Shown: positions 8,308 through 64,000, counted from the stretch's first letter. The stretch: DNA of 64,000 nucleotides from Dehalococcoidia bacterium (GCA_965219325.1 OZ244723.1:1642158-1706157), one strand, 5' to 3'. Numbers and translations are program-made. Notes: generated by a model from the letters alone, not told the origin.

Positions 8308-9030
8308 CTATGGTTCGTCGCGTGCTGAGAGTTCGGCAGAGATTCCGAAATGGTCGGATAGCCTGAGATCGCCGTTCATGTTGCTGATCACGCCCAGGGA
8401 CTCCGCAGCAAGGTCATCGGTGAGGATTATGTGGTCGATGCTCCTTCGCCCCTGGTGGCCGAGCGTGGAGGTCGCCATCGTCATCCCATCCGGTATGGCC
8501 CTCCTCAGCGCCATGCGCAGGTCTACCGGCGCATGGCCTCGTTGCGAGATACGCTGGTTGAAGTCCCCCATGACGATGAGGCGGTCGGGGCGGGTACGTG
8601 AGAGCACGCTGGCAAAGCCTGCCAGGTAATCCCGATGGTCCTCCCACGTCTTCCGCCCGTCTTCGGAATCCCGGACCCGCGAGCCCGACCAGGGGATGCA
8701 GACCCCGATAACGGTGACCCGGCCTATCGACGTGTCCGTGACACCCGCAACGAACCTGCCCGGCGGCATCGACCGTTCTCCCACGTCGTCGACCCCCTCC
8801 CACGGCCGTTTGGACCAAAGCAGCACCTTCCTGCGGCCCTCCTTGATCGGGTACCCGTAGTCTTCCTGAGAACAGATCGTGTGCCCGTCTCTCGCAAACA
8901 ACCCCAAAACCGCCTCGGTGAGGCAGACGATCTCAGGATCATGCCGCTCTATGCGCCTGCGGATCTCGACCGATCTTGGCGAGCGGGACGTCGCCCACTC
9001 GACGTTCCAGTTGACAAGTCTCAGCGGCAT
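8308..9030 (-). CDS. Endonuclease/exonuclease/phosphatase (EEP) family protein, type 1, copy a
   Basis: 240 aa. EEP catalytic landmarks are present: NWNVEW, IVCLTEA, MGDFNQ and C-terminal LSDHFG. Confidence 0.8.
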   Translation of the reverse strand: MPLRLVNWNVEWATSRSPRSVEIRRRIERHDPEIVCLTEAVLGLFARDGHTICSQEDYGYPIKEGRRKVLLWSKRPWEGVDDVGERSMPPGRFVAGVTDTSIGRVTVIGVCIPWSGSRVRDSEDGRKTWEDHRDYLAGFASVLSRTRPDRLIVMGDFNQRISQRGHAPVDLRMALRRAIPDGMTMATSTLGHQGRRSIDHIILTDDLAAESLGVISNMNGDLRLSDHFGISAELSARDEP

Positions 9031-9119
9031 TGCACGTCGTTCCTACTCTCCCCCGGAATTGAGTTGACCGTCATCGATTTTCGTCTCCCCTCGCCGGATT
9101 GATCCGGCCTGCCCGATTC

Positions 9120-9698
9120 TCACTGTACCGTCAGGAACACGGGCTTTTTGCCGATGTACTCGAGAACGCCCCGGACCCAATCCACCGTCGCATCAGACGT
9201 TTCCGGGCCGGTCAGCACATCAACGCGTGGCGCCAGATGCGGTGGGTCGCCCCACCTGGTCACAACGACCCTGTCCGGCCGGCTGGTTGAGGTGGCCAGC
9301 TGGCTCAGACCAAAGGATGCCCCGGTGCTCGCAAGAACGGCCCGGGTCGGGCAGTGGCGGTCGAGCTCGGCCATCACCCTGCGCTTGAGCTCAAGATCAT
9401 CTGCCATCGCCTCCACGGCGAAGCCGACTTCGCCCATGGCGTCTGCGACAGCCGTGCCGGGTACCAGGTGCTGCCGGGCGTGCTCCGCTGTCCATCGATC
9501 CACAATTCCCTCTTCTACTTCGAGAATTCCGAGCGCACTGCGGACATCGTCGAGCGCCCTGCATAGATACTCGCGCGAGGACTCGACGAGCACGACTCTG
9601 AAGCCTCCGAGCGCGAGGGACAGCGCAATCCACTGACCTTCATCCCCCACGCCGACCACTGCGGCATCGCCCACTGGTTGTACGCCTCCGTTTGGCAT
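9120..9698 (-). CDS. 3-hydroxyacyl-CoA dehydrogenase N-terminal (NAD-binding) domain-like protein, copy a
   Basis: 192 aa with Rossmann motif GVGDEG, then FAVEAMADDLELKRRVMAELD...AVLASTGAS...RPDRVVVTRWGDPPH...IGKKPVFL. This is collinear with 3HCDH_N. There is no C-terminal 3HCDH_C domain. Confidence 0.7.
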   Translation of the reverse strand: MPNGGVQPVGDAAVVGVGDEGQWIALSLALGGFRVVLVESSREYLCRALDDVRSALGILEVEEGIVDRWTAEHARQHLVPGTAVADAMGEVGFAVEAMADDLELKRRVMAELDRHCPTRAVLASTGASFGLSQLATSTSRPDRVVVTRWGDPPHLAPRVDVLTGPETSDATVDWVRGVLEYIGKKPVFLTVQ

Positions 9699-9730
9699 CT
9701 ACGCTCCCCGCGAGCGTGGCCGCCGCGGCG

Positions 9731-9913
9731 TCATGAGACCTCGATTTCGATGCGACAGTGGTCGCTGGGCCCCCAGTGGTCCGGTCCGTTCAGGGCACGC
9801 ACAGGGTTGAGAACCGCTGGGGTTTCTGTCTTGAGGGTAGGGGTGCAACCTGTCAGGTCCGCACGCGCGTCAATTCCGTATCCTTGCGGCCCAGGGTCAA
9901 ACTCAGCGCCCAC
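9731..9913 (-). pseudogene. Remnant of EEP type 2 gene (only the last ~22 codons are homologous)
   Basis: The ORF tail VRALNGPDHWGPSDHCRIEIEVS matches the C-terminus of the 282-aa EEP at 46932..47780 (VRALNDPDHWGPSDHCRIVIEVS). The upstream part is unrelated. Confidence 0.5.
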
Positions 9914-21070: not shown

Positions 21071-21073
21071 GGT

Positions 21074-33348: not shown

Positions 33349-33540
33349 TTACAGCTCGGCAGTTCCGCCCCGGTCATCGCAGGGAGGCTGCTCCACAAAT
33401 GTACTCGGCGTTGCCGTCTCGTTGACCACCTCAATTGTCTCATCGCCACTGCCATTGCCACCGCACCCCGAAACCATCATGAACAGCGCGAGCGCTCCCG
33501 CCAACGTCAACAATTGCAACATCCTCACGGCGGCCCTCAT
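33349..33540 (-). CDS. Small putative lipoprotein
   Basis: 63 aa with a signal peptide and lipobox (LALFMMVSGCGG). Overlaps the upstream gene's stop by 4 nt. Confidence 0.4.
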   Translation of the reverse strand: MRAAVRMLQLLTLAGALALFMMVSGCGGNGSGDETIEVVNETATPSTFVEQPPCDDRGGTAEL

Positions 33541-35828: not shown

Positions 35829-36467
35829 AGAAGGTCCCTCAATCACCAACCGTCTGGTACAGTGCATAGATCGCCAAAATATCCAGAGGGTGAGGCGAAC
35901 AGTTGGGATCATATTCCAACAATAGTTCTGGAGCTGCAGTCCTTAGATTACGACCCTCATAGCTCATCACCGATCCGGGCACCGTCAACTGACCTGTCGG
36001 TCGGTCAGGCGTGTCTGGCGGACTGGACGCAGCCGCAGCTGTAATGCGCAGCATTAGCTGGTCTCCGGACTCCCAGGGCTGCTCGGCTACCGACCACGTC
36101 AGCGTGCCCGCCGCCGCGTCCACCGTCGCCGACGATGCCGAGAGGAACAGGTACATCCACCGGTACGCCAACTGCACACGCTGTACCACCTTCACCCCGC
36201 GGCGGCCCCACACCCTGCGCACCACTCCACTCTCTGACACAAGGCTAACGAAGCGCGAACCCCATGGGCAACCCACCGTAGGCAGGGCAGCGCGCGACGG
36301 TCACAAGGGGCCTAACAGCGTGGGGAAGAACTGTCACCCTGAGCGACGCGAAGGCACTTGGGGGGATCGCCTCAACTTGGACTAGGTGTCGACCTCGCCG
36401 CTGCCACTAGTCTCCTTTCTCCGTTCGGGGCGGCATTCAGCAGGCCGGGCCGCCTTTCGGCAACCTG

Positions 36468-41293: not shown

Positions 41294-42121
41294 TCAGTTT
41301 GAGACCGGCGGGTTACATCCTTGACAGATGCGAACATCCCGCCCCGTGCCTGTGGCCTTGTTCAATGCGGCCTCAGCGGTCTCAAATCCCTCGTGGTATT
41401 CGCCAGTAGGCGGTTTGGTGCTACTCACACCACCGTGCATCTTGAGGTAGCCACAAGTCGCTCTATGAACGGCGGCGTAGTTGTGGATTCTGTTTTCATA
41501 CACGGAATAGCGCAAGGCTAGTTCTCCAAACCGAAACAACTCTCTGAGGACTGCCCGGGTCGCCAGCAGGGCCTGCCTAGCGTCATCATTGATCACCTCG
41601 TCTAGGGGATCGGCCTGTGGATGGGCCGCCTTGCCGCCCATGAACACGGCTGCCATGCAGTTGCGGTAGGCCAGCTCAGTTAGAAGGTCCCGACTGCGCG
41701 CCCGCTCGACCATCCTGGTCGGCGGCCCGTCTTCCAGGCCCACGGCGAGCAGCGCGTGCTGGACAACGCGGCGACACAGAACTGCGGCCGCAAGGGGCTC
41801 GTTGAACGCCAGACACCTCGCTGCCGAGACAAGAATTCCCCAAATCTCGCCGGGGACGCGGGGGATCTCCTCCAGCAACTCAGCCGGGACAACTGATCTG
41901 GGAGGCGATGTCAGCCTGGCGGGCTGACGGGGGCCCATATACGAGTGCGCGGTGGAAATGGTGACCTCATACGGAAACTTGCACGATCCGCACGTGACGG
42001 GACCCTTGTATCCGTCGTAGGTGTCCTTATCGAGATGCTGCACCGCTCCGCAGGTGGGACAGTATGGAAAGGGCATAATCGGCTGGAACCTCTCGTTGGT
42101 TGTGTCTACCCTTTCTATCAT
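41294..42121 (-). CDS. Zinc-ribbon plus DUF4145-like (HEPN-related helical) protein
   Basis: N-terminus CPTCG...CGSCK. The middle region, AARCLAFNEPLAAAVLCRRVVQHALL...AAVFMGGKAAHP, resembles the DUF4145 pattern (from memory). Confidence 0.55.
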   Translation of the reverse strand: MIERVDTTNERFQPIMPFPYCPTCGAVQHLDKDTYDGYKGPVTCGSCKFPYEVTISTAHSYMGPRQPARLTSPPRSVVPAELLEEIPRVPGEIWGILVSAARCLAFNEPLAAAVLCRRVVQHALLAVGLEDGPPTRMVERARSRDLLTELAYRNCMAAVFMGGKAAHPQADPLDEVINDDARQALLATRAVLRELFRFGELALRYSVYENRIHNYAAVHRATCGYLKMHGGVSSTKPPTGEYHEGFETAEAALNKATGTGRDVRICQGCNPPVSN

Positions 42122-42363
42122 GCCCGCTGGCCCTCTCCGCTCAGGACAGCAGCGTCCGCAGTGGCTCCGTAGACTTGTCCTCGTGGTGGCCGTTCCGTTG
42201 ACCGCTGCGGCCCCCGGCTCCGCCTGCGCCAGCCTCCTCCGTCCTCGCCCACTCGCAGTTCCCCGGCCTCGCTCTCCACGTCCTGTGCTCGTGTGAGTAC
42301 TTCCTCCACCGTCTCCGCCTCGTCCTCCTCGTCGCCGCTGACGATCCTGCGGGCCAGAGCCAT
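42118..42363 (-). pseudogene. Short 3'-end remnant of the same helicase family (copy C)
   Basis: ALARRIVSGDEEDEAETVEEV parallels LMALARRIVNGEEEEPETVEE in the remnant at 7959-8290. Confidence 0.45.
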
Positions 42364-44610: not shown

Positions 44611-45085
44611 CGCAACATATCTATGTAAGTATATCTTGGACAGTTGTAGAGACTCTAGCTGGAGATACCCGGCTTCAAGCAAGTTTATGGAAGTGTGCTG
44701 CTAAAACACGGTGTTGTTCGCTAAGAAGGCCTGACCATAGATTGTCTGTTTCTCTGTGCTGTTTTGCGCCCTGTGCGCTGAGGGTTGGGCGACAGGTGTT
44801 TCCCTAGAACCTCTGGCCGGCAGACAATCCGTATGTGAGGCGGGACTGAGGCTAGTATTTCAAGAGGCCGGCACACTTGGATTGGCAGGGACAGCCACGC
44901 GGTGGCCATCTCTGCACTTTGCAGCTCTAGTGCCGTTCACTGACTGGCTCGCGCTCCCGTCCCTCCGCCCACTGAAAGAGGGACAGAGGTGGGGCTTGGG
45001 CTTCGCTCTTGAGGCCCCTGGGCCTGACCGGTTCTGCGGAGACGAAATCCGCCCATGAGAACAGCGTCCGCTGCGGCTCCGTGAC

Positions 45086-45500
45086 CTAGTCGTGGTGCCC
45101 ATTGACCGGGACCAGCCCGAGCGTCGGCCGCAATGCGTCGTGATGGCCGTTTCCGTTGACGTTGACCGGCCTCCAAGGCTCGTCTACCAGCAGCTCCACG
45201 GTCTCGGCGTCCCGCGCCTGGGCGAAGACCTCCTCCACGGTCTCGGCCTCGTCCTGCTCGCCGCTGACGATCTTCCTCGCCGTCGCCGTCGCCGTCGCCG
45301 AAGGCGGCGAACCCGTCCTCGGGCAGTTCGCCCTCGACGGCCAGCGAGTCCTGGAGCTTCCTGGTCACCAGCTTCAGGGCGTCGGCCTGCAGAGTGTTTC
45401 GGTAGCTCATGAACACGATCCTGATGGGCCGGGTCCATCTCATGCGCCACGACCGGCGCGAGGCCCGTCTCACGGTGTGAGCCAATCAGCGTCAGTCTCT
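45086..45500 (-). pseudogene. 3'-end remnant of an SNF2-type helicase gene (copy B), internally frameshifted
   Basis: HRETGLA...RPIRIVFMSYRNTLQADALKLVTRKLQDSLAVEGELPEDGFAAFG. A (GCCGTC)n tract at 45279-45300 follows, then ARKIVSGEQDEAETVEEV in another frame. Confidence 0.55.
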
Positions 45501-45511
45501 GTCTGGGGGCG

Positions 45512-46234
45512 CTATGGTTCGTCGCGTGCTGAGAGTTCCGCAAAGATCCCGAAATGGTCGGACAGCCTGCGATCGCCGTCCATGTTGCTGATCACGCCCA
45601 GGGACTCCGCCACAAGGTCATCGGTGAGGACTATGTGGTCGATGCTCCTTCGTCCCTGGTGACCGAGCGTGGAGGTCCCGATCGTCATCCCATCCGGTAT
45701 GGCTCTCCTCAGTGCCATGCGCAGGTCTACCGGCGTATGGCCTCGTTGCGAGATACGCTGGTTGAAGTCCCCCATGACGATGAGGCGGTCGGGGCGGGTA
45801 CGTGAGAGCACGCCGGCAAAGCCGGCCAGATACTCCCGATGGTCCTCCCACATCTTCCGCCCGTCTTCGGAATCCCGGACCCGGGATCTCGACCAGGGTA
45901 TGCAGGCCCCGATAACGGTGACCGGGCCTATCGACGTGTCCGTGACACCCGCCACGAACCTGCCCGGCGGCATCGACCGGTCTCCCACGTCGTCGACCCG
46001 CTCCCACGGCCGTTTGGACCAAAGCTGGACCTTTCTGCGGCCTTCCCTGATCGGGTACCCGTAGTCTTCCTGAGAACAGATCGTGTGCCCGTCTTTGAAA
46101 GACAACCCGATAACCGCCTCGGTGAGGCAGACGATCTCGGGATCATGCCGCTCTATGCGCCTACGGATCTCGACCGATCTTGGCGAGCGGGGCGTCGCCC
46201 ATTCGACGTTCCAGTTGACAAGACTCAGCGGCAT
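45512..46234 (-). CDS. EEP family protein, type 1, copy b
   Basis: 240 aa, about nine in ten residues identical by eye to 8308..9030. NWNVEW, CLTEA, GDFNQ and SDHFG are conserved. Confidence 0.8.
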   Translation of the reverse strand: MPLSLVNWNVEWATPRSPRSVEIRRRIERHDPEIVCLTEAVIGLSFKDGHTICSQEDYGYPIREGRRKVQLWSKRPWERVDDVGDRSMPPGRFVAGVTDTSIGPVTVIGACIPWSRSRVRDSEDGRKMWEDHREYLAGFAGVLSRTRPDRLIVMGDFNQRISQRGHTPVDLRMALRRAIPDGMTIGTSTLGHQGRRSIDHIVLTDDLVAESLGVISNMDGDRRLSDHFGIFAELSARDEP

Positions 46235-46323
46235 TGCACTTCGTTCCTACTCTCCCCTGGAATTGAGCCGAGTGGCATCGATTTTCATCGCTCCTCGCCG
46301 GATTGAACGGGCCCGCCCGAATC

Positions 46324-46899
46324 TCACTGTGCCGTTATGAACACGGGCTCTTTGCCGATGTACTCAAGAACGCCTCTGACCCAATCGACCGTCGCACCAG
46401 ACGTTGCAGGGCCGGTCAGCACATCGACGCGTGGCGCCAGATGCGGTGGGTCGCCCCACCTCGTCACAACGACCCTGTCCGGCCGGCCGGTCGAGGTGGC
46501 CAGCAGGCTCACATCAAAGGATGAGCCGGTGCTCGCAAGAACGGCCCGGGTCGGGCAGTGGCGGTCGAGTTCGGCCAACACCCCGCGCTTGAGTTCAATA
46601 TCATCTGCCATCGCCTCCACGGCGAAGCCGACTTCGCCCATGGCCCCTGCGACGGACGTGCTGGGGACCAGGTGCTGCAGGGCGCGGTCCGCTGTCCATC
46701 GATCCACCATACCCTGCCGTTCGAAACGGCCGAGCGCATTGCCGACATCGTCGACCGCCCGGCGCAGTTTCCCGCGCGACGACTCGACGAGCACGACCCT
46801 GAAGCCGCCGAGCGCGAGGGATAGCGCGATACCCTGTGCGGTATCTCCCACGCCGACCACGGCCGCATCGCCCACTGGTTGTATCCCCCCGTTTGGCAT
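46324..46899 (-). CDS. 3HCDH_N-like NAD-binding domain protein, copy b
   Basis: 191 aa, a close paralogue of 9120..9698 (GVGDTA, FAVEAMADDIELKRGVLAELD, VVVTRWGDPPH). Confidence 0.7.
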   Translation of the reverse strand: MPNGGIQPVGDAAVVGVGDTAQGIALSLALGGFRVVLVESSRGKLRRAVDDVGNALGRFERQGMVDRWTADRALQHLVPSTSVAGAMGEVGFAVEAMADDIELKRGVLAELDRHCPTRAVLASTGSSFDVSLLATSTGRPDRVVVTRWGDPPHLAPRVDVLTGPATSGATVDWVRGVLEYIGKEPVFITAQ

Positions 46900-46931
46900 C
46901 TACGCTCCCCGCGGGGGAGGCCGTCGCGGGG

Positions 46932-47780
46932 TCATGAGACCTCGATCACGATGCGGCAGTGGTCGCTGGGACCCCAGTGGTCCGGATCGTTCAGGGCACG
47001 CACACGCACGGAATCGTCCATATCCCGGGACGCGAAGACGAAGTCCAACTGGCGGGTGGCAGTGGATGGGCCCCGGCCGATCGGGTAGTACGTGGGGACA
47101 TTCCTGCTGCTGCTGGGAAGCTCACCCGGCCATGGATCCGCCTGCCGACCGTTGGGCGCCTGCGGGCCTACGAAAGAGAGGCCTAGTGCCTCCATCCTGT
47201 CGAACACCGTTCCGTACCGTCCGGCCCAATATTCGCTGCCGCCATCCCCATGTCCCCTGAGAATGTTCAGATCGCCAGCAGTCAGAATGCGATGGCCGTC
47301 CTGTCTGCCTATGAACGTGGATAGATCCGAGACCACGCGGTGTGCCGACGCGTCCGAGACGATCCAGCGGCTGTTAGAAGTGGCGTGAGGTCTCTCCCAT
47401 AGAGCGTACATGGAGACCGCCACGAATGGCTCGATCCCGGGGGACGAAACAAGCGCGGCGGTGACTGTCCCGGGACGGCTGACGGCGAACTCCCCCGAGC
47501 GCGCTTCCTCCATAGCCTTGGGCGTAATCCATTCCACCTCCACTCGATCAGAGAGCCTTGCTATCGCTGTCCTGCGGGTCCACCCGGTCCATCCAACAGT
47601 TGTCCAGGGAGCGGGATCGACGTCAATTCGCCTGCGTAATTCCTCGGGCGGGCGATCCGCCTCCTGCAGGAGAGCGACATCGGCGTCCATCGCGATCAGA
47701 CAATGCCAGGGATCCGTCCTGCCGTCGATGTTCCAAGAGACGAGCCTAACTGCCAACGAGCCGACATTCCTTCCGGTCAT
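46932..47780 (-). CDS. EEP family protein, type 2, copy b (full length)
   Basis: 282 aa with EEP landmarks: VSWNIDG, VALLQEA, TAGDLNI and PSDHCRIVIEVS. Confidence 0.78.
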   Translation of the reverse strand: MTGRNVGSLAVRLVSWNIDGRTDPWHCLIAMDADVALLQEADRPPEELRRRIDVDPAPWTTVGWTGWTRRTAIARLSDRVEVEWITPKAMEEARSGEFAVSRPGTVTAALVSSPGIEPFVAVSMYALWERPHATSNSRWIVSDASAHRVVSDLSTFIGRQDGHRILTAGDLNILRGHGDGGSEYWAGRYGTVFDRMEALGLSFVGPQAPNGRQADPWPGELPSSSRNVPTYYPIGRGPSTATRQLDFVFASRDMDDSVRVRALNDPDHWGPSDHCRIVIEVS

Positions 47781-52406: not shown

Positions 52407-53297
52407 CTAATCTGCTGCAATTTCGATGAGTAGTCGGCAGTGGTCGCTCGCGCCCCACTCCTCAACAGAATTCATGGCCCGCACCGTGATGCACTCGTGA
52501 AAGCCGCGGGAGGCGAAGACGTAATCGAGTTGATTGTTGCTTGTCGTCTCCGGCTTCTTACCGGGTAGGCAGTATGTGACGACGTTGCGGGAGTCGGCGG
52601 GCTCTCCCGTAGCCGGTGTCTTTGCCTGCCGACCATTCGGTGCCTGCGGCCCCGTGAACTCCAGCCCGATGGTTGTCATCCTCTCGAAGACGGACCGGTA
52701 TCGTGCCTCCCAGTAGGAGGGGTCGCCGCCATCGCCATAGCCGTGCGCGATGTTGAGATCGCCAGCAGCCAGTATGCGATGTGTCCGCGGATTCTCGTGG
52801 CCTATGAAGGCCGAGAGATCCGAGATGATCCTGTGAACGGAAGAGTCGGCGTAGCCGAAGCCCCACGCCGTCTTGACGCCCGGATGCGACCCGATCCAGC
52901 GGCCGTACATGGAGACGGCGAAGAACGGTCCGACCGAGCCGTCACGGGGCGTTATGCGGGCGGCCGCTATCGTCCCGATGCCGCTCACGGCGATCTCGTC
53001 ACACTCTGTCCAGCCTATCGGACTGACCTGCCTGAACCACTCGACTTCGACCCGGTCCGATAGCTTCACCACCATCGGCCAGCGGTCGTACAGTTTCGGG
53101 TACCGATCTTCGTACCAGCGCGAGTTCCAGACATGTGAGTCCCAGTGCTCTACCGGGCCGATATCCACTCTATCGGCGACGTCGGAGGGAGGGTCTGCCG
53201 CCTCCTGCAGCAGAGCTATGTCCACGTCCAACTCCAGAAGCTGGCGCCACGGCCGGAGTCGCTTGGCGATGTTCCAACTCACTACTGATACAGTCAA
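52407..53297 (-). CDS. EEP family protein, type 2, copy c
   Basis: 296 aa (VSWNIAK, IALLQEA, AAGDLNI, ASDHCRLLIEI). Diverged paralogue of 46932..47780. Confidence 0.78.
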   Translation of the reverse strand: MTVSVVSWNIAKRLRPWRQLLELDVDIALLQEAADPPSDVADRVDIGPVEHWDSHVWNSRWYEDRYPKLYDRWPMVVKLSDRVEVEWFRQVSPIGWTECDEIAVSGIGTIAAARITPRDGSVGPFFAVSMYGRWIGSHPGVKTAWGFGYADSSVHRIISDLSAFIGHENPRTHRILAAGDLNIAHGYGDGGDPSYWEARYRSVFERMTTIGLEFTGPQAPNGRQAKTPATGEPADSRNVVTYCLPGKKPETTSNNQLDYVFASRGFHECITVRAMNSVEEWGASDHCRLLIEIAAD

Positions 53298-53369
53298 TGA
53301 ATCCTCCGATGTGACTTTAGTGATCCCCCAACTATCCTCTTTGGTCCCTCGGGAGTGAAGAGACTGACA

Positions 53370-54092
53370 CTACTTGAGGTTTTGGGCAGACAGGTCGGCG
53401 ACTACGCCGAAATGGTCTGACAGCTTCCTACCCTCATGGATGTTGCTGATCACACTCAGGGAGCCAACCACCCAGTCCGCGCTCAGTGCAATGTGATCGA
53501 TATTGCTACGTCCCTGGAAGACAAGCTCCGACGTGGCGATTTCCATGCCCGGCGAGAAGGCCTCCCGAAGTGCCAATTGAAGCTCGGAACGCGCGAGGCT
53601 ACCTGGTCCTACAATCTGGTTGAAATCCCCCATCACTATCAGACGCTTGGCATCCGCCCGATCGAGCACCTCAGTGAGACCTCCCAGATACTGTTCATGG
53701 TCCTCCCATGGCGCCTTGCGCTCCGGCTTGCGGTTAGCCTCAGTCCGTGATCCGAACCAGGGGATGCAGATTCCCATGACGGCGACCTCGCCCATTGACG
53801 TTTGCGTGACGCCCGACACGAATCGACCGGGCGGCATCGAGTCGATGCCCAGGTCGTCCACCTGCTCCCACGGTCGCCTGGACCACAGCAGAACCTTCCT
53901 GCGGCCCCGCTTGATCGGATACCCGTAGTCTTCTCGCGAGCAGATCATGTGCCCTTCCCGGGAGAGCAGCGCGGCGTCCGTCTCGATCAGGCAGACGATC
54001 TCGGGATCATGCCCCTCAATGCGCCTGAGGATCTCGGGAGATCTGCGTGAGCCGGGCGTGGACCACGCGACGTTCCAGTTGACCAGTTTCAA
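53370..54092 (-). CDS. EEP family protein, type 1, copy c
   Basis: 240 aa (NWNVAW, VCLIET, MGDFNQ, LSDHFG). About half the residues are identical by eye to copies a and b. Confidence 0.78.
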   Translation of the reverse strand: MKLVNWNVAWSTPGSRRSPEILRRIEGHDPEIVCLIETDAALLSREGHMICSREDYGYPIKRGRRKVLLWSRRPWEQVDDLGIDSMPPGRFVSGVTQTSMGEVAVMGICIPWFGSRTEANRKPERKAPWEDHEQYLGGLTEVLDRADAKRLIVMGDFNQIVGPGSLARSELQLALREAFSPGMEIATSELVFQGRSNIDHIALSADWVVGSLSVISNIHEGRKLSDHFGVVADLSAQNLK

Positions 54093-54329: not shown

Positions 54330-55442
54330 CTACCGCGGACCATCCAGCTGTATTTCCCGCACCGTGTCGCAGAAGTTGGTGAGCTGTAGGAGCTCCTCTT
54401 CCTTGAGTGGATCCCTAAAGTGCATAAGCCGATTGCGATACTTACGAACATCATTCAGGGCCTTGGTGAAGACAATTCTATCGAATGGGACATCGAGTTC
54501 GTGCCAGTGCTCTGCGGACTCTAGCACTCGCTGCAGTGCTCCGACTGTCAAGTCGTCAAGGTCGGCGATAGGATCATCGCCCGAGAGGCCCCTTTCACTG
54601 AGAAACTGGGCCACCCTGTCCTTCCCCAGCCGCCTTTCGAGCAGAGCACGCAGGCGTTCCTCGATTTCGCCTATACGCTTGAAGGGGTCTACCAAACCGG
54701 CAAACTCTTCAGCCAGATCCCAGGCCGTAACGATTCCCTGGAGCCTCTTCTCCCGTCCGATTACCAGGACCACGTCAGTCTCAGCCAGCCGACTGACAAC
54801 GGACTTAAGGTCGTCGTGACTTTGTGCGAACGGCACCTTGCTGTCCACACAATCACCCACGGTCGTGGGTTGTCCGTTCATCAGTGCCTTCGCAATCGAC
54901 TGGAACGACACGATTCCCTTGATGTCCTGCTGTCTGGGTGTCGAGCCGTTTGCGACCACCAACTGCGAATACTTGCCCAAGAGCATCTCGGTATAGGCTA
55001 CTTGGATCGGCGCATCATGCGGCACACACTTCACTGCCTTGTTTGCTGAGGCGAGCTCGGACACGCTGAATGCTGGCTCGGGTAGGCTGAAGTCGTCTAT
55101 GAGTTCCTGCGGCGGAGCATCGGTCCCCGATATATCTTGGCCGTCGCCCGACGCATCGATCGCTGCATCTTCCGCTGTACTGAGCGTGAAGCGGATGTAG
55201 GGTGACCTTAGCGGCATGTCGGGACTGACTGGAGGGTCCGCCACCAAGCCGAGTTCCGCTAGTGTCGTGTTTATCTCATCGATGGCCGTCTTGCGCCTCC
55301 TGACGTAGCCAAAGGCGCGAAGCACGTTCTCACCCATCCTCCATTGATTGCGTCCGGACTCCAAGTTGGACCGGATGTCCCCCAAGTACTCACGCCCGTT
55401 CATGGCTCCTCCTAGGTTTGGCATGCTCTTGCCTGCCCACAC
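54330..55442 (-). CDS. CBS-pair domain protein with C-terminal HEPN-type RNxxxH motif
   Basis: CBS-like segments: VPHDAPIQVAYTEMLLGKYSQLVVANG...IKGIVSFQSI and HDDLKSVVSRLAETDVVLVIGREKRLQGIVTAWDL. C-terminus: LNDVRKYRNRLMHFRDP. Confidence 0.65.
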   Translation of the reverse strand: MWAGKSMPNLGGAMNGREYLGDIRSNLESGRNQWRMGENVLRAFGYVRRRKTAIDEINTTLAELGLVADPPVSPDMPLRSPYIRFTLSTAEDAAIDASGDGQDISGTDAPPQELIDDFSLPEPAFSVSELASANKAVKCVPHDAPIQVAYTEMLLGKYSQLVVANGSTPRQQDIKGIVSFQSIAKALMNGQPTTVGDCVDSKVPFAQSHDDLKSVVSRLAETDVVLVIGREKRLQGIVTAWDLAEEFAGLVDPFKRIGEIEERLRALLERRLGKDRVAQFLSERGLSGDDPIADLDDLTVGALQRVLESAEHWHELDVPFDRIVFTKALNDVRKYRNRLMHFRDPLKEEELLQLTNFCDTVREIQLDGPR

Positions 55443-55844
55443 CGACGGGTTGTCACCCTACAGTGTGCTTTCCGGTCGATGTGATTCAGTACCTGAGCGT
55501 GCGGTGGGAGGCGGAACGTCCCGATACGCTGTAGGCCGGGTGTAGAGAGGGCTGAACTCCGCCGCCTGCTGGCGCCTGAGCTAGGCGCAGGCCGTATGCG
55601 ATCCTCTTTCGCCCAGGATGTCAAAATGCTGGTTTTTCTTTTGACTTCCCGATTGATCCCATGGGTCGGTACGAATGATCGAATCCCTTAAGGCAGTCAG
55701 TCCGACAATTCGGCCCATCGATTCGAGCTAAGAGCCCATGGCGAAACGTGCTCGAGGCCTCCCTTGCTTGAGTGGGCAGATTGCCTTTCTGGTCAAGGCT
55801 ATCTGAGTCCGTGCCAATCGGGTCTGCCATTCGGGAGCCAGCCG

Positions 55845-57965
55845 TCATCTCGAGGGTCGCCCGCCCCAACGGTGCTGCACATACGTGATCGCCTCCTTGA
55901 CCGGGAGCGGCTGAGTAAGGTTGCCGCTGCGCACGTAGAAAGGAGCCTCGTTGGACTTTTCGACATAGACCGGCTGGTCGCTCGGATCGACCGCGATCTG
56001 GCATATATCCTCGCCGTCAATCTCATGGAAGTTGACTGTCAGGTAGGAGGCCGCCACCGCCTCACCGAGATCCTTAGCCACTATCTGCTGCAGACGCTGC
56101 TCGAACCCGTCCCGGTCTTGGCGCTTAAGGGTGCCGTAGTCGGCGGCGAGTCCAACGGCACTCCCTTGGTCATCAACACCGATCAGGAGCGTGCCGCCGT
56201 CAGCCGAGTTCAGAAATCCCGCCAGCGCCTTAACCACTACATCCTCAAGTACCTTGTTTACTCTGTTCTCGGCGATGTCCCAGCGCATGCTCGACTTGAA
56301 CTCGACGAGCTGACTCTCCCCGGCCGACATTAGGTGACGCACGCTGTGCTCATCCATTGCAGCGTGCTCAACCTCCGGGACCCAGCTCTCGATGTATTCG
56401 TTGATCGCCTTTATGAGCAGGGTGCGGCGAGCGCTCATGAAATCGACGAATCGCTCCGGGGACCAGAGGCTGCGATCCATCGGCATCGACTGGGCCTTCA
56501 GGGCTCCGGAGAACTTCTCCTCGATCTCGGGCAGGTAGTCGGCGGGCGAGGATCGGCGGTGCGCCAGTGACGGCTTCTGGCCCAGGAATACCCTGTTACC
56601 CACCGCGTTGATCACCGTCAGGTCCGTGAATCCCGCCGCCTCCAGCACCCTTCGGTGGAATATGTAGTGACGCACGCCGCCGTTGCTCTTGCCGACGGCC
56701 GGATCGTATATGCGCGAGCCCGTAAACCAGTCCCGGGCCTCCTTAGACCTGGCTACGATGTGACTCAGGCGCGCCACTGCGGAGTTGATTTTGGCCCGCG
56801 CCAAGTCGCCCTGTTCTAGGACGACACGGCCGCGCTCTCTCAGGATGGCCGCCTCCAGTTCGTGCGTTGGATCCTGATCGCCGCCAGCCACGAGGGCGAC
56901 ATCCTGCTGCAGTTTCGTTTCGGTCGCCCCCGTGTATCGTGACCAAAGCCCCGCAAGATAGAGCCAGCGAACGAATCGCCGCTTGATAGTGGCGCTTGGG
57001 AAGGTGCCGCCGTGTCGGGCCAAATAGACGGTGGCGGGCACGAGGACGTTGTCGGTGGGCAAGTCCGAGAGATCGCCGATGAAGGCCTCATGGCGCAGCA
57101 CGCCCACGAGATGCTCGAACGCCGGCTGTATCTCTTCCCAGGCCGTCCTTAGATCCTCCGCCGGCGTCCTCATGAAAGTGCCTTCCAGCACGATCGAGCC
57201 GGTGGCCACACCAGCCATGCACCGGACTAGAAAGTCCAGGTCGACACCGAAGCCGACCTGTTTCATCTTCAGGCTGAACGACCACAGATCCCCCCTGGCC
57301 TCCGGCCAGATGCTGCAGATGTGGGCCAGTGCAAGGTCCGCCTTCGTGAGCGGCGTACCCGCACGGTTGACCCGGTTGAAGATATCGACGACCTGTTCGA
57401 CGCTAAATTCCTCTCCGGAAACCTGGTCTACCGTATACGTGTAGTTGCGAATCCCATCCAGACGGCCGAGCCGAGCGAGATTCTGTTGGATGATCGCGCG
57501 GCGCTCTTCGGGAAGTTGATCCAGATTCTCCAACAGGCCCGTCAGCCCCTGGCTCAGGAGATCGTGGACCCCGATCCATGCCGGGTTGTTCCCCATCAGC
57601 GACTTCTGATAGAAGCGGAACTCCTCGGTCTGCATGTTGAAATGCAGGTCGAAGTATAGCGACTCACCCTCGTAAAACAGCGGCGCCTTCCCACGAAACA
57701 GAACGTAGAGCGTGGTCAGGCGCTGCTGTCCATCCAGAAGAAGGAGCGAATGCCCGTTGCCCGTCTTCTGCGCGCCTCGCACCAGAGAGGGCTTGTAGGT
57801 CCGCCATGTGAGCAGGTGGCCGGTAGGATGCCTTCGGTAGAGTGACTGCATTAGGCCGCGCACTTGATCCCGGTTCCAGACGTACCCACGCTGGAACTCG
57901 GGGAGAAGGATCTCGCTGTGCCCGATCTCGCCCAGGAGGTTTTGGATCGATTTCACCTCATGCAT
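55845..57965 (-). CDS. DUF262 (GmrSD-type ParB-like NTPase) protein fused to a C-terminal AlbA_2/Schlafen-like domain
   Basis: N-terminus: ILLPEFQRGYVWNRDQVRGLMQSLYRRHP...LLLLDGQQRLTTLYVLF. C-terminus: ESQLVEFKSSMRWD...ALAGFLNSADGGTLLIGVDDQGSAVGL. Confidence 0.8.
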   Translation of the reverse strand: MHEVKSIQNLLGEIGHSEILLPEFQRGYVWNRDQVRGLMQSLYRRHPTGHLLTWRTYKPSLVRGAQKTGNGHSLLLLDGQQRLTTLYVLFRGKAPLFYEGESLYFDLHFNMQTEEFRFYQKSLMGNNPAWIGVHDLLSQGLTGLLENLDQLPEERRAIIQQNLARLGRLDGIRNYTYTVDQVSGEEFSVEQVVDIFNRVNRAGTPLTKADLALAHICSIWPEARGDLWSFSLKMKQVGFGVDLDFLVRCMAGVATGSIVLEGTFMRTPAEDLRTAWEEIQPAFEHLVGVLRHEAFIGDLSDLPTDNVLVPATVYLARHGGTFPSATIKRRFVRWLYLAGLWSRYTGATETKLQQDVALVAGGDQDPTHELEAAILRERGRVVLEQGDLARAKINSAVARLSHIVARSKEARDWFTGSRIYDPAVGKSNGGVRHYIFHRRVLEAAGFTDLTVINAVGNRVFLGQKPSLAHRRSSPADYLPEIEEKFSGALKAQSMPMDRSLWSPERFVDFMSARRTLLIKAINEYIESWVPEVEHAAMDEHSVRHLMSAGESQLVEFKSSMRWDIAENRVNKVLEDVVVKALAGFLNSADGGTLLIGVDDQGSAVGLAADYGTLKRQDRDGFEQRLQQIVAKDLGEAVAASYLTVNFHEIDGEDICQIAVDPSDQPVYVEKSNEAPFYVRSGNLTQPLPVKEAITYVQHRWGGRPSR

Positions 57966-59424: not shown

Positions 59425-59904
59425 ATGAAGCCATTCGACGACTATCCCGGTGGGGGCAACAGGATCTTGAAGAGAATGGGCCGGACTAACACGCGCCGCG
59501 AGGATGGCCTTTGGCTGATGGAGAATGCCAAACAGAACAGCTGCGCATACTGCGATGTCAGCCTCGTGGACACCTACCATCACTGGCTGCTACTCAACGT
59601 AGGCCATGTTGTCCCCTCCAGGGAATGCGCGAGGCTCGGTATCCCGGACGGGTGGCATCATTCCTTCACGAATACCGTCCTTTCGTGCTTTGGATGCAGC
59701 ATGTTCGATAACCGCTACAGCATCGACTGGCAGCCTCCCAAGGCCCCCGAAGAATGGACGGCTCGAGAGTTCATTACCCTTCGGGACAGGGTCTTTCGAG
59801 AGAGGCATAGACGCATCGGTGAGCGTCGTGATTGCGAGATTCGCTTCTTCGAATTGATGGTGGAGAGTAGCGGACCTGGACCGACCCAAACCAGACCCAT
59901 CTAG
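59425..59904 (+). CDS. Small HNH-motif endonuclease
   Basis: ATG at 59425, in frame within ORF 59239..59904. Motifs: CAYCDVSL...GHVVPSREC...NTVLSCFGCSMFDN. Confidence 0.6.
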   Translation: MKPFDDYPGGGNRILKRMGRTNTRREDGLWLMENAKQNSCAYCDVSLVDTYHHWLLLNVGHVVPSRECARLGIPDGWHHSFTNTVLSCFGCSMFDNRYSIDWQPPKAPEEWTAREFITLRDRVFRERHRRIGERRDCEIRFFELMVESSGPGPTQTRPI

Positions 59905-59970: not shown

Positions 59971-60708
59971 ATGAGCAAAGATGAATTCCCACAGGAGGTC
60001 GTGGATGCGCTGGGGTGCTACGTCTATCGGTTGATCGACCCTCGCAACGGGGAAACTTTCTACGTGGGCAGGGGCAGGGGGCAGAGAGTATTCGCTCACC
60101 TGAAAGGCTCTGTCAGCGATGGGGACCAAAGCGCCGCCGACCCGAAATTGGAGCGAATCAACGAGATACGGGGCATGGACATGGACGTAGCGCACGTCAT
60201 CCACCGTCACGGTATGTCGGAGTCGACGGCAAAGGAGGTCGAGGCGGCTCTGATCGATGCTTATCCCGGTCTGGAGAATAGGGTGGCCGGTGCGGGCTCG
60301 AGGGACTACGGCACGCGGCACGTGAGTGAAATCATCCAGGAGTACAGCGCCCAGGAATTCGTGGTGGGCGAGCCTCTCATCCTGATCTCTATTGGGCAGC
60401 TGTGGAGGAAGCGTGGCGTATATGGGGCCGTGAAGGGCAGGTGGAGGTTGGACATGGAGAGAGCGAAGCGTCGCAAGCTCGTGCTGGCCCATGTGAGAGG
60501 AGTGGTAAGAGGGGCCTATAGGCCAGAGAAGTGGACTAGAACGACGGCGCAGGATGTGCCGGACCACCCACATCTAGCAGGCCGCATCGGCTTTGACGGC
60601 ATTGAAGCCGAACCGGAAGTGTGGGAGAGGTATGTAGGGAAGAGGGTGCCCGCGCGGTATCGGAAACGGGGCGCGCAGGCGTCCTGTAGGTATCTGAGTC
60701 CGCGGTAA
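59971..60708 (+). CDS. GIY-YIG nuclease-domain protein
   Basis: The N-terminus CYVYRLIDPRNGETFYVGRGRGQRVFAH fits GIY-x(10)-YVG plus a conserved R. The C-terminal half is unassigned. Confidence 0.65.
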   Translation: MSKDEFPQEVVDALGCYVYRLIDPRNGETFYVGRGRGQRVFAHLKGSVSDGDQSAADPKLERINEIRGMDMDVAHVIHRHGMSESTAKEVEAALIDAYPGLENRVAGAGSRDYGTRHVSEIIQEYSAQEFVVGEPLILISIGQLWRKRGVYGAVKGRWRLDMERAKRRKLVLAHVRGVVRGAYRPEKWTRTTAQDVPDHPHLAGRIGFDGIEAEPEVWERYVGKRVPARYRKRGAQASCRYLSPR

Positions 60709-63519: not shown

Positions 63520-64000
63520 TCATTCCCCGGCCGAATCGCCATCCAGTGGCAACACGACCGGCTCCTTGCCGATGTACTCCAGGACGCGCCTGGTAATACC
63601 AATTGTGCGTTCGGTCGTCTGGGGACCGCCAACGACTTCGACGCGCGGCATTCCATGAGGGGGACATCCCCACCTTGTCACGACGACCCTGTCCGGTCGG
63701 CCGGTCGCCTCAGCTAACTCATTAGCGGGGTATGAAGACGAGGTGGATGCGAGAACGGTCCGTGGTGGGCAGTGCCGATCAAGGTCCGCCAGGATGCGCC
63801 GCTTCAACTCCAGATCCTCAGGCACGGCCTCGATCGCAAAGCCGACCTGGCGCATCTTCTCGCCAATCGACATGCTAGTTCGAATGAACTCGAGAGCCAT
63901 CCTGTCGACGGATACGTGGACTGCCCCACGCCTTTCGAGGTCATCCGTCATGGTCCTGATCTTCTCCATCGCCCTCTGGAGGTTCCTGCGAGACGAGTCG
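63520..64000 (-). CDS. 3HCDH_N-like NAD-binding domain protein, copy c (5' end beyond the window)
   Basis: FAIEAVPEDLELKRRILADLDRHCPPRTVLASTSSS...RPDRVVVTRWGCPPH...IGKEPVVL is collinear with copies a and b. The frame is open to the window edge. Confidence 0.7.
   Translation of the reverse strand, partial: DSSRRNLQRAMEKIRTMTDDLERRGAVHVSVDRMALEFIRTSMSIGEKMRQVGFAIEAVPEDLELKRRILADLDRHCPPRTVLASTSSSYPANELAEATGRPDRVVVTRWGCPPHGMPRVEVVGGPQTTERTIGITRRVLEYIGKEPVVLPLDGDSAGE

What the first reader, a model, noticed from the sequence alone, without database searches (positions are those of the whole stretch)
45512..47780. Recurrent three-gene cassette EEP(type 2) - truncated 3HCDH-like NAD-binding protein - EEP(type 1): candidate undescribed system
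Three co-directional genes sit with short gaps (about 32 and 89 nt): 47780->46932, 46899->46324 and 46234->45512. They encode two unrelated EEP phosphodiesterases/nucleases flanking a 191-aa Rossmann protein.

- Both EEPs keep their full catalytic landmarks (WN, LQE/LTE, GDxN, SDH).
- The same gene set recurs as diverged paralogues at 8308-9800, where the type 2 gene is decayed.
- It also recurs at 52407-54092, with both EEP types adjacent and no NAD protein. A third NAD-protein copy sits at 63520 onward.
- I know of no described defence or metabolic system with this composition.
- The embedding between CRISPR-Cas, R-M, HEPN and GmrSD-like genes, together with the copy-number and paralogue turnover, is typical of defence cargo.
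Basis: partly seen in the sequence, partly recalled or inferred. Interest (0 to 1): 0.8.

Follow-up and report, generated by a model that had tools for sequence, protein, structure and literature searches.

The report
Two-nuclease plus dead-dehydrogenase gene cassette
A real three-gene block (two nuclease-like enzymes around a catalytically dead NAD-fold protein) recurs in a narrow group of Dehalococcoidia inside defence-type islands, but its parts mostly occur apart and often decay, so it is an interesting lineage-specific accessory cassette, not yet a demonstrated new system.

Summary
Three co-directional ORFs lie at 47780->46932 (E2a), 46899->46324 (N) and 46234->45512 (E1a), with 32- and 89-nt gaps. 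Paralogues sit at 8.3-9.8 kb, 52.4-54.1 kb and 63.5 kb.

- **The EEPs:** both keep every catalytic residue and model as DNA-acting folds (TDP2, LINE-1/TRAS1 endonuclease, ExoIII/APE1).
- **N:** it is only the N-terminal Rossmann domain of a lambda-crystallin-type 3-hydroxyacyl-CoA dehydrogenase. The catalytic His is Arg or Lys in every intact member, the C-domain is absent, and the NAD motif is degenerate in about 20% of members.
- **For a unit:** E2-N-E1 recurs with conserved order and a conserved 32-nt junction in at least five other Dehalococcoidia contig sets. All lie beside defence or mobile genes, and dN/dS is about 0.2-0.3.
- **Against an obligate system:**
  - E1 lacks both partners in 68 of 80 genome loci, mostly next to metabolic genes.
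  - E2 lacks N in 80 of 80 metagenome loci.
  - N forms a single 50%-identity cluster and also occurs alone.
  - One or both EEPs are broken in about half of the cassettes.
  - PADLOC and PHROGs find nothing.

My best reading is an accessory nuclease module with a non-catalytic Rossmann partner (confidence about 0.4). Historical juxtaposition of independent genes is nearly as likely.

The parts
46932..47780 (-). E2a: 282-aa divergent EEP (endonuclease/exonuclease/phosphatase) protein, first gene of the cassette
   Evidence: ORF. Pfam Exo_endo_phos scores 23.6 bits against a 24.5 cut-off. The family has more than 4,222 clusters at 62-90% identity in the top 120. Catalytic residues E40, D170, N172, D246, D273 and H274 are invariant and N17 is conserved in at least 90% of sequences. 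The AF2 model has pLDDT 87.9. Foldseek top hits are TRAS1 and R1Bm endonucleases, Mth0212/ExoIII and APE1, at TM 0.54-0.62.
46900..46931 (-). 32-nt E2-N junction with the SD-like sequence GGGGAGCGTAG before the N start codon
   Evidence: Sequence read. The length is the same and the sequence 88% conserved across window A, L014, L002, L086 and L087. The predicted hairpin is not better than shuffles (z = -1.2).
46324..46899 (-). N: 191-aa stand-alone 3HCDH_N Rossmann domain, a pseudo-dehydrogenase
   Evidence: Pfam 3HCDH_N at 121 bits, with no C-domain. All NCBIfam 3HCDH models score far below their cut-offs. In the alignment to 3-hydroxybutyryl-CoA dehydrogenase 6aa8, 'GMHFFNP' becomes 'VTRWGDP'. 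His is replaced by Arg or Lys in all intact family members but one (Gly), and GxGxxG is degenerate in about 9 of 45. dN/dS is 0.17-0.53. The family is a single cluster at 50% identity.
46235..46323 (-). 89-nt N-E1 spacer with the SD-like sequence GGGGAGAGTAGGAA before the E1 start codon
   Evidence: Sequence read. The spacer is 66% conserved across six cassettes, and the start codon alternates between ATG and TTG.
45512..46234 (-). E1a: 240-aa EEP protein, third gene of the cassette
   Evidence: Pfam Exo_endo_phos at 59 bits. The family has more than 1,077 clusters. Catalytic residues are invariant. The AF2 model has pLDDT 85.9. Foldseek top hits are TDP2, LINE-1 and TRAS1 endonucleases and Mth0212, at TM 0.64-0.69.
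45196..45485 (-). Frameshifted remnant of a helicase-type C-terminus, carried along in the duplicated block. It is debris, not a working part.
   Evidence: Six-frame translation shows '...SYRNTLQADALKLVTRKLQDSLAVEGELPEDG...', shared with 7959-8207 and partly with 42118-42363.
8308..9802 (-). Copy B: E1b (8308-9030), Nb (9120-9698) and the last 23 codons of a deleted E2 (9734-9802)
   Evidence: tblastn and blastn self-comparison. The 1.8-kb duplication is 88% identical. dN/dS between A and B is 0.41-0.43.
52407..54092 (-). Copy C: the E1c (53370-54092) then E2c (52407-53297) pair, with a 72-nt gap and no N. This is a second cassette type.
   Evidence: The same E1->E2 arrangement occurs in L011, L022, L035, L036, L056, L074 and L079. 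Six of the eight pair-linked E1 sequences, including window copy C, form one clade in the NJ tree.
63520..64000 (-). Nc: a third N paralogue (53% identity), cut by the window end. No E1 lies downstream of it.
   Evidence: The next gene, 63002-63463, is on the opposite strand.

Best explanation
The segment is a lineage-restricted accessory operon of Dehalococcoidia (Chloroflexota). It encodes two different, catalytically competent, DNA-acting EEP phosphodiesterases or nickases, E2a and E1a. Between them lies a non-catalytic Rossmann protein, N, derived by truncation from a lambda-crystallin/L-carnitine-dehydrogenase-type 3-hydroxyacyl-CoA dehydrogenase.

**Proposed mechanism.** The two EEPs cut or process nucleic acid, each providing one active site. 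N can no longer oxidise a substrate. It has also lost the C-domain that normally covers one face of the Rossmann fold. I propose that N uses that exposed face, and possibly a residual dinucleotide pocket, to bind and modulate one of the nucleases.

The block was assembled once. It has since spread by duplication, recombination and horizontal transfer among defence and mobile islands, where it acts as dispensable conflict cargo (anti-phage or anti-plasmid) and is often lost piecemeal.

**Shown.**
- Gene structure and domain identities.
- Conservation of the EEP catalytic residues.
- Loss of the dehydrogenase catalytic His and of the C-domain.
- Conserved synteny and a conserved E2-N junction.
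- Purifying selection on all three genes.
- Island context.
- Narrow distribution of N.

**Inferred, not shown.**
- DNA as the substrate.
- Any N-EEP contact or any regulation by N.
- Co-transcription.
- A defence role.
For: **Anatomy.** Three co-directional ORFs have 32- and 89-nt gaps, each preceded by an SD-like motif.

**Enzymes.** EEP catalytic residues are invariant across 50-sequence alignments. Both models match DNA-acting EEPs best.

**N.**
- It has only the N-domain.
- The catalytic His is Arg or Lys in all intact members but one.
- The family-specific motifs MPNGG(V/I)QP(V/I)GDA and TRWGxPxHL are conserved.
- dN/dS is about 0.2-0.3.
- Its nearest outside relatives are full-length enzymes with the His intact.

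**Unit-like inheritance.**
- Cassettes occur in L014, L087, L086 and L002/3/4.
- The E2-N junction is conserved.
- At least 27 of about 51 N clusters share a contig length with an E1a or E2a gene.
- Triad-linked E1 sequences cluster together in the tree.
- Nine of the ten E2 copies found in 1.28 Mb of E1-flanking DNA lie directly next to E1 on the same strand, in two different orders.

**Context.** All N-cassette loci sit beside defence or mobile genes. The genes are essentially absent from viral contigs and PHROGs.
Against: - E1 lacks both partners in 68 of 80 genome loci, with mostly metabolic neighbours that are partly shared between species.
- E2 lacks N in 80 of 80 metagenome loci from many environments and has no conserved neighbour.
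- N occurs alone in L001, L170, L005 and L171, two of them in a conserved AddAB-like / PLP-decarboxylase context.
- Many cassettes are damaged:
  - L002/3/4: both EEPs are frameshifted.
  - L086: E1 is cut to 68 aa.
  - Window copy B: E2 is deleted.
  - L012: N has decayed while E1 is intact.
- The NAD-binding motif is degenerate in about a fifth of N proteins.
- The gene trees of N and E2 disagree, so the parts recombine independently.
- There is no PADLOC hit.
- No experimental or complex-prediction evidence exists for any interaction.
Confidence: 0.4

Rival explanations
1. There is no system. Three independently functioning genes became neighbours once in a recombination-prone island of one Dehalococcoidia lineage. 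The block has since been copied as a hitch-hiking unit. The EEPs are ordinary stand-alone cellular enzymes, for example repair-type nucleases, and N has its own unrelated role.
For: - E1 and E2 overwhelmingly occur without each other and without N.
- Solitary E1 genes sit among metabolic genes, and their context is partly shared between species, for example the luciferase-like neighbour in L006-L008.
- N is maintained alone in four loci.
- Cassettes lose members freely.
- The window island is full of gene debris and duplications.
- The N and E2 trees are incongruent.
Against: - E1 and E2 are adjacent in two independent gene orders far more often than chance would give: 9 of the 10 E2 copies near E1 are immediately adjacent and co-directional.
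- The tight 32-nt E2-N junction is conserved at 88%.
- All N proteins at least 65% identical to N_a whose surroundings could be read or traced sit with E1a/E2a-type genes.
- Cassettes lie exclusively in defence or mobile contexts, unlike solitary E1 genes.
Confidence: 0.33
2. It is a small-molecule or lipid phosphoesterase operon. One or both EEPs act on a nucleotide cofactor (as Nocturnin does on NADP(H)), on 2'-5'/cyclic oligonucleotides (as PDE12 does) or on a phospholipid, with N as an NAD(P)-binding partner or carrier.
For: - The EEP superfamily includes such enzymes (established knowledge).
- N keeps a Rossmann fold, and about 80% of its members have a plausible dinucleotide-binding motif.
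- Sphingomyelinase appears among the lower E2 fold hits.
- Structural similarity to DNA enzymes is only moderate (TM 0.55-0.69).
Against: - The top 15-50 fold matches for both proteins are DNA-acting EEPs.
- No metabolic genes are conserved next to the cassette.
- N lacks catalytic residues, and about 20% of members lack NAD-binding determinants.
- There are no signal peptides or membrane segments in the sequences (read directly).
Confidence: 0.1
3. It is a toxin-antitoxin or addiction module. One or both EEPs are DNA-damaging toxins and N is the cognate immunity protein.
For: - N is intact in 7 of 8 cassette instances, while EEP genes are often broken.
- The genes are short and tightly spaced and lie in mobile or defence islands.
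- Orphan N genes exist, much like orphan antitoxins.
Against: - E1a-clade genes survive intact without N: L012, where N has decayed, and L006-L009.
- E2a-type proteins at 70-78% identity occur on contigs that carry no N.
- Most of the EEP family members examined have no N partner.
Confidence: 0.07
4. N is merely a pseudogene fragment of an hbd/fadB-type dehydrogenase, and the 'cassette' is decaying DNA.
For: - N is truncated exactly at the domain boundary and has lost its catalytic residues.
- The island contains other gene remnants.
Against: - More than 45 clusters keep the same 180-200-aa length.
- dN/dS is 0.17-0.53 across all pairs, including solitary copies.
- Family-specific motifs are highly conserved.
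- N has its own SD-like site and start codon, conserved across loci.
Confidence: 0.03

Closest known systems
DNA-acting EEP enzymes: TDP2, the LINE-1/TRAS1/R1Bm retrotransposon endonuclease domains, and ExoIII/APE1/Mth0212
   Same: Same fold by Foldseek, with probability 1.0 and TM 0.54-0.69. Both E1 and E2 conserve the same catalytic Asn/Glu/Asp-x-Asn/Asp/Asp-His set.
   Different: Sequence identity is only 14-18%. There is no significant sequence hit to any PDB chain, and no NCBIfam model matches apart from a far sub-threshold xth hit for E1c. These are stand-alone 240-282-aa proteins with family-specific inserts, for example the E2 motif 'FVGPQAPxGRQADPWPDELP'. The substrate is unknown.
3-hydroxyacyl-CoA / 3-hydroxybutyryl-CoA dehydrogenases and the lambda-crystallin (L-gulonate 3-dehydrogenase) / L-carnitine dehydrogenase subfamily
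   Same: N aligns end to end with their NAD-binding domain: E 3e-20 to 6aa8, best NCBIfam model PRK06129. The nearest outside relatives are P0313-P0316.
   Different: N lacks the whole 3HCDH_C dimerisation and substrate domain. The catalytic His is Arg or Lys, the GxGxxG motif is partly degenerate, and the protein is 191 aa instead of about 290. It is not an enzyme of this family.
Nuclease-effector defence-island modules in general, and EEP domains already seen in defence proteins such as the putatively inactive EEP domain of ArmC in ARMADA II (PMC13463889)
   Same: The cassette is located in defence islands, encodes nuclease-type effectors, shows paralogue turnover and is absent from phage genomes.
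   Different: There is no homology to any PADLOC v2 model. The EEPs here are stand-alone and catalytically intact rather than a fused inactive domain. No ATPase, helicase or other recognised sensor is present. No phenotype is known.

Membership tests
EEP superfamily (Pfam PF03372), tested on E1a | HMM match above the gathering score | tested here: met
   59.2 bits against a 24.5 cut-off, covering the full-length profile 2-225.
EEP superfamily (Pfam PF03372), tested on E1a | Catalytic Asn, Glu, Asp-x-Asn, Asp and Asp-His residues, and the four-layer alpha/beta sandwich fold | tested here: met
   N9, E39, D156, N158, D226 and H227 are invariant and D199 is at least 90% conserved in 50 sequences. 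The model has pLDDT 85.9 and Foldseek probability is 1.0 to TDP2 and L1-EN.
EEP superfamily (Pfam PF03372), tested on E2a | HMM match above the gathering score | tested here: inconclusive
   E2a scores 23.6 bits against 24.5, just below the cut-off. Paralogue E2c scores 30.2 bits, and many homologues carry a precomputed PF03372 hit.
EEP superfamily (Pfam PF03372), tested on E2a | Catalytic residue set and fold | tested here: met
   E40, D170, N172, D246, D273 and H274 are invariant and N17 is at least 90% conserved. The model has pLDDT 87.9 and Foldseek probability is 1.0 to TRAS1-EN, ExoIII and APE1.
3-hydroxyacyl-CoA dehydrogenase (functional enzyme), tested on N | NAD-binding N-domain (PF02737) | tested here: met
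   121 bits, covering profile positions 2-177 of 180.
3-hydroxyacyl-CoA dehydrogenase (functional enzyme), tested on N | C-terminal 3HCDH_C domain (dimerisation and substrate cleft) | tested here: not met
   The protein ends at residue 191, where the C-domain would begin. There is no PF00725 hit, and all NCBIfam equivalogs score far below their cut-offs.
3-hydroxyacyl-CoA dehydrogenase (functional enzyme), tested on N | Catalytic His (of the His-Glu dyad) in the 'HFFNP'/'HYFNPP' motif | tested here: not met
   His is replaced by Arg or Lys ('TRWGxP') in all intact N-family members but one, which has Gly.
3-hydroxyacyl-CoA dehydrogenase (functional enzyme), tested on N | Intact GxGxxG motif and beta2 acidic residue for NAD binding | tested here: inconclusive
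   N_a itself reads GVGDTA, with Ala in place of the third Gly. The second Gly is lost in about 9 of 45 members and the acidic residue in about 8 of 45. Binding was not measured.
Any described anti-phage defence system (PADLOC-DB v2.0.0) | Homology of at least one component to a system model | tested here: not met
   There were no hits at E <= 0.01 for all eight E1, E2 and N paralogues. DefenseFinder itself was not available.
Any described anti-phage defence system | Experimental protection against phage or plasmid | not testable with these tools
   This needs cloning and challenge experiments.
Conserved multi-gene system (operational definition) | Components co-occur and are co-linear in most genomes that carry any one of them | tested here: not met
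   This holds only from the N side, for N proteins at least 65% identical to N_a. E1 lacks both partners in 68 of 80 loci. E2 lacks N in 80 of 80 loci. N occurs alone in four loci.
Type II toxin-antitoxin module | The toxin gene is not maintained without its cognate antitoxin | tested here: not met
   E1a-clade and E2a-type genes are intact without N.

The most novel reading that the evidence does not exclude
E2a-N-E1a is a genuinely new anti-phage or anti-plasmid system confined to Dehalococcoidia that appear to be sponge-associated. In it, a dehydrogenase-derived pseudo-enzyme senses the NAD(H) or nucleotide state of the cell, or a phage product, and gates two different EEP nickases. Together these make double-strand breaks or strip protein-linked DNA ends, as TDP2 does. 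The E1c-E2c pair would be the sensor-less core version.
Probability: 0.15. Interest if true: 0.65.

Novelty: new variant of a known kind. Interest (0 to 1): 0.4.

Why it matters
**If the cassette works as a unit.**
- It would add stand-alone EEP nucleases to the repertoire of defence effectors.
- It would be a clear case of a metabolic dehydrogenase domain re-used as a non-catalytic partner.
- It comes from an uncultured lineage whose immune gene content is largely unexplored. The record names suggest these are sponge-symbiont Chloroflexota, but that is my inference.

**Independently of that.**
- Two very large, highly conserved EEP families (more than 1,000 and more than 4,000 clusters at 90% identity) currently have no name, no solved structure and no known substrate.
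- E2 in particular is spread across many environments at 50-65% identity.

**If the cassette is only a historical juxtaposition.** Then the lesson is methodological. Recurrence of a gene set within one genome and its close relatives, inside a recombining island, is not evidence for a system unless linkage also holds from the viewpoint of each component family.

Tried and rejected
1. **PADLOC, PHROGs and NCBIfam naming.** There were no hits for E1 or E2. For N, NCBIfam gave only sub-threshold 3HCDH models and PADLOC and PHROGs gave nothing.
2. **Sequence search of the PDB for E1 and E2.** Nothing significant was found, so structure prediction plus Foldseek was used instead.
3. **A conserved third partner.** Neighbour clustering found none for E1 (maximum 13 of 80 loci) and none for E2 (maximum 5 of 82 loci).
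4. **Phage-borne origin.** E1 is absent from IMG/VR, and E2 has only two hits at 41% identity.
5. **A regulatory hairpin in the E2-N spacer.** Its fold is not better than shuffles (z = -1.2), so the idea was dropped.
6. **Sigma-70 promoter and terminator scan of 45.0-48.2 kb.** It was uninformative: no promoter, and one terminator-like site at chance level.
7. **Rfam and tRNA scans of the window.** Both found nothing.
8. **Reading beyond the right window edge.** I wanted to see whether an E2 precedes Nc, and to reach the fourth cassette in the same genome (P0013, P0179). The source genome is not in the contig index.
9. **Literature.** No paper links stand-alone EEP proteins or 3HCDH_N to a defence system. 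The only EEP mention is the fused, putatively inactive domain of ArmC.
10. **N as a pseudogene.** Rejected on dN/dS and motif conservation.
11. **N as the antitoxin of E1 or E2.** Disfavoured, because intact E1a and E2a genes exist without N.
Full report
**1. Observation**

All stated ORFs exist at the stated coordinates.
- E2a: 46932-47780(-), 282 aa.
- N: 46324-46899(-), 191 aa.
- E1a: 45512-46234(-), 240 aa.
- The gaps are 32 and 89 nt. Each downstream gene has an SD-like purine run before its start codon.

Pfam gives Exo_endo_phos for E1a at 59 bits and for E2a at 23.6 bits, a hair below the 24.5 cut-off. It gives 3HCDH_N for N at 121 bits, covering essentially the whole N-domain profile and nothing else. 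E1 and E2 are not detectably similar to each other by BLAST.

The paralogues are as described.
- Copy B keeps E1b (90% aa identity) and Nb (82%), but only the last 23 codons of E2.
- Copy B is part of a 1.8-kb DNA duplication, 8009-9803 / 45226-47004, at 88% identity.
- Copy C is an E1c->E2c pair, at 58% and 46% identity, in the reverse gene order and without N.
- Nc runs off the right end of the window.

The island context is real.
- A Dpd-like 7-deazaguanine cluster.
- A complete type I-E CRISPR-Cas locus with a 5.7-kb array.
- A DNA methylase and an HNH gene.
- DUF4268, REase-ARP, a CBS protein resembling the DS11 anti-phage protein, and a GmrSD_N-Schlafen fusion.
- GIY-YIG and NERD-helicase genes.

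**2. What the three proteins are**

*E1 and E2.* In 50-sequence alignments of each EEP family, the canonical Asn, Glu, Asp-x-Asn, Asp and Asp-His catalytic residues are invariant or nearly so. Neither protein has a significant sequence match in the PDB.

AlphaFold2 models are confident, with pLDDT 85.9 and 87.9.
- The E1 model matches TDP2, LINE-1 and TRAS1 endonuclease domains and Mth0212 best, at TM 0.64-0.69.
- The E2 model matches TRAS1 and R1Bm endonucleases, ExoIII/Mth0212 and APE1 best, at TM 0.54-0.62.

I therefore infer that both act on nucleic acid. That is an inference from fold neighbours, not a demonstration.

*N.* It aligns end to end with the NAD-binding domain of 3-hydroxybutyryl-CoA dehydrogenases and stops exactly where the C-terminal domain would begin.
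- The catalytic His of 'GMHFFNP' is Arg or Lys ('TRWGxP') in all intact members of the family but one, which has Gly.
- The second Gly of GxGxxG is replaced by Glu, Arg, Asp or Ala in about 9 of 45 members.
- The beta2 acidic residue is lost in about 8 of 45.

An exhaustive HMMER scan of 1.84 billion representatives found one full-length N-like representative at the 50% identity level, plus two short fragments. The next best hits are full-length, sometimes tandem, lambda-crystallin/L-carnitine-dehydrogenase-type enzymes with the His intact ('VAHYFNPP').

So N is a lineage-specific, truncated pseudo-dehydrogenase. It is not a pseudogene.
- dN/dS is 0.17-0.53 in all pairwise comparisons, including solitary copies.
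- It carries strongly conserved motifs of its own, MPNGG(V/I)QP(V/I)GDA and TRWGxPxHL.

**3. Is the triad a unit?**

*From the N side, largely yes.* Neighbourhoods of N homologues show the following.
- L014: E2-N-E1 fully intact.
- L087: E2 lacking about 27 N-terminal residues, then N and E1.
- L086: E2, N, and an E1 remnant of 68 aa.
- L002/3/4: N with both EEPs frameshifted, identically in three independent assemblies.

The 32-nt E2-N junction has the same length and 88% column identity across five loci. Contig-length coincidences among the three homologue lists and the E1a cluster members link at least 27 of about 51 N clusters to an E1a- or E2a-type gene on the same contig.

In a neighbour-joining tree, triad-linked E1 sequences fall in one clade together with four solitary ones. 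Six of the eight pair-linked E1 sequences, counting window copy C, fall in another clade (no bootstrap was done). Every cassette that contains N lies beside defence or mobile genes.
- L002: McrBC-like genes, Type I HsdR, Replic_Relax.
- L086: GmrSD, T5orf172, AlpA.
- L087: REase-ARP, NERD helicase, GIY-YIG, GmrSD_N.
- L014: an SMC/AAA_23 ATPase.

*From the EEP side, no.* A scan of 185,579 species genomes found 318 E1 loci. The best 80 are nearly all Dehalococcoidia or Chloroflexota MAGs, plus one gammaproteobacterial and one Acidimicrobiia 'Spongiisocius' MAG. The record names suggest marine-sponge symbionts, which is my inference.

Among those 80 loci:
- 68 carry neither E2 nor N within 8 kb.
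- 7 carry the E1->E2 pair.
- 1 has an E2 about 2 kb away on the other strand.
- 1 has the full triad.
- 1 has a decayed N next to E1.

No neighbouring family is shared by more than 13 loci. The immediate neighbours are mostly metabolic: periplasmic binding proteins, S9 peptidases, ABC ATPases, methyltransferases, luciferase-like monooxygenases and FGGY kinases. Few are credible defence genes.

E2 is an even larger family, with more than 4,222 clusters. In 80 metagenome loci from many environments, at 47-67% identity, none has N, one has an E1 nearby, and no neighbour recurs. N itself occurs without EEPs in four loci. Two of these share an AddAB-like / N / PLP-decarboxylase / ACT context.

*Still, E1-E2 adjacency is not random.* Ten E2 copies were found in 1.28 Mb of E1-flanking DNA. 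Nine of them lie within about 110 nt of E1 on the same strand. They occur in two different orders (E2-N-E1 and E1-E2), each with its own conserved spacing.

The parts also recombine. N from L014 and L086 are each other's closest relatives (dS 0.35). Their E2 genes are not (dS 0.89, against 0.55 for window A versus L086).

**4. Interpretation**

The data fit a cassette that was assembled once in a Dehalococcoidia lineage. Selection maintains it moderately. It resides and multiplies in defence and mobile islands: at least four N copies and four E2 copies are listed for the 3.25-Mb contig the window appears to come from. It is dispensable enough to lose members often.

My preferred mechanism has two catalytically competent EEP nucleases as effectors and the dead Rossmann domain as a binding or regulatory partner. 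It is plausible but rests on inference. N's exposed former C-domain interface and its residual nucleotide pocket are the obvious candidate surfaces.

The rivals compare as follows.
- **Independent genes.** This is nearly as likely, because each component clearly has a life of its own.
- **Toxin-antitoxin.** This is disfavoured, because intact E1a- and E2a-type genes exist without N.
- **Small-molecule phosphoesterase.** This cannot be excluded, given only moderate TM-scores.
- **Pseudogene.** This is rejected for N.

**5. Comparison with known systems**

Nothing in PADLOC v2, PHROGs or NCBIfam corresponds to these proteins. Four full-text searches aimed at such a system found no defence system built from stand-alone EEPs or a 3HCDH_N protein. 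The only EEP in a described defence protein that I found is the fused, putatively inactive domain of ArmC in ARMADA II (PMC13463889).
- E1 and E2 are members of the EEP superfamily by residues and fold.
- N is not a member of the dehydrogenase family in the functional sense, since the C-domain and the catalytic His were tested and found absent.

**6. Verdict**

The cassette is real and undescribed, but it is narrow in distribution, separable into its parts and often decayed.

I rate interest at 0.4. It is worth a complex prediction and a cloning test, and the two large unnamed EEP families deserve biochemical characterisation. The evidence does not justify calling it a new defence system.

Noticed in passing
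window 52407-54092; L011, L022, L035, L036, L056, L074, L079: A second conserved arrangement exists: E1c followed after about 72-80 nt by E2c, with no N. It recurs in seven other genomes, and six of the eight pair-linked E1 sequences (including window copy C) form one clade. Its contexts are mixed: metabolic, transposase, and a DUF4011/AAA_11-12/REase_MTES_1575 helicase-nuclease.
   Followed up: partly
L020, L024, L025, L030, L032, L034 (for example L024:7250-7933 and 8883-9572): In one E1 clade the gene is flanked on both sides by paralogous 230-aa P-loop proteins ('MNIIVVGCEYTGTTTL...'). They have no Pfam hit and only a weak PHROG thymidylate-kinase match (E 2e-7). This is a third recurrent E1 arrangement.
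   Followed up: partly
window 7959-8207, 42118-42363, 45196-45485: There are three remnants of the same helicase-type C-terminus ('SYRNTLQAxALKLVxRKLQxSLAVEGELPEDG...ALARRIV'). The one below E1a is frameshifted. The parent gene was not identified, and Pfam finds nothing in the two remnants scanned (7959-8207 and 44937-45485).
   Followed up: partly
window 1-7138: A Dpd-like 7-deazaguanine DNA-modification cluster. It comprises an SNF2/ResIII helicase with a Zn-ribbon (running off the left edge), DndB-like (DpdB-type), radical-SAM, DUF6884 and TGT (DpdA-type) genes.
   Followed up: no
window 12484-27476: A type I-E CRISPR-Cas locus (cas3, cse1, cas7/CT1975, cas5, cas6e, cas1, cas2). The array has about 94 repeats of 61-bp period, with repeat GGTCTATCCCCGCGTCTGCGGGGGAACC. 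A perfect 427-bp internal duplication of seven repeat-spacer units spans 15839-16722.
   Followed up: partly
window 30606-32218: An IS-like element: a 507-aa HTH_29/HTH_23/HTH_32 protein (30640-32163) flanked by roughly 50-bp inverted repeats at 30606-30653 and 32169-32218 (90% identity).
   Followed up: no
window 27372-27422 and 59563-59613: A 51-bp direct repeat at 88% identity between the cas3 upstream region and the region before the GIY-YIG gene. It is unexplained.
   Followed up: no
window 59971-62529; L087:1844-4427: A LEM-3-type GIY-YIG gene plus a NERD/SF1-helicase gene lie next to Nc in the window, and the same two families lie next to the triad in L087. They may be a linked defence pair of their own.
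   Followed up: no
window 54330-57965: A CBS-domain protein matches NCBIfam DS11_antiphage at 203 bits (cut-off 260). Beside it is a 706-aa GmrSD_N + Schlafen AlbA_2 fusion.
   Followed up: no
window 33537-35912: A 791-aa protein combines PD40 beta-propeller repeats with leucine-rich repeats. This is a eukaryote-like repeat protein of the kind often reported from host-associated bacteria.
   Followed up: no
L001:4068-8278 and L170:2011-8277: The distant N subclade (60-62% identity) sits in a conserved context of UvrD/PDDEXK_1 (AddAB-like), N, pyridoxal-dependent decarboxylase and ACT-domain genes, without EEPs. L170 has an E2 C-terminal remnant 1.9 kb downstream on the other strand.
   Followed up: partly
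P0316, P0317: P0316 (311 aa, with its C-domain) and P0317 (188 aa, ending within the N-domain) are close relatives of N that have also replaced the catalytic His, here by Asn ('VANWWNP'). Loss of catalysis may therefore predate the truncation.
   Followed up: no
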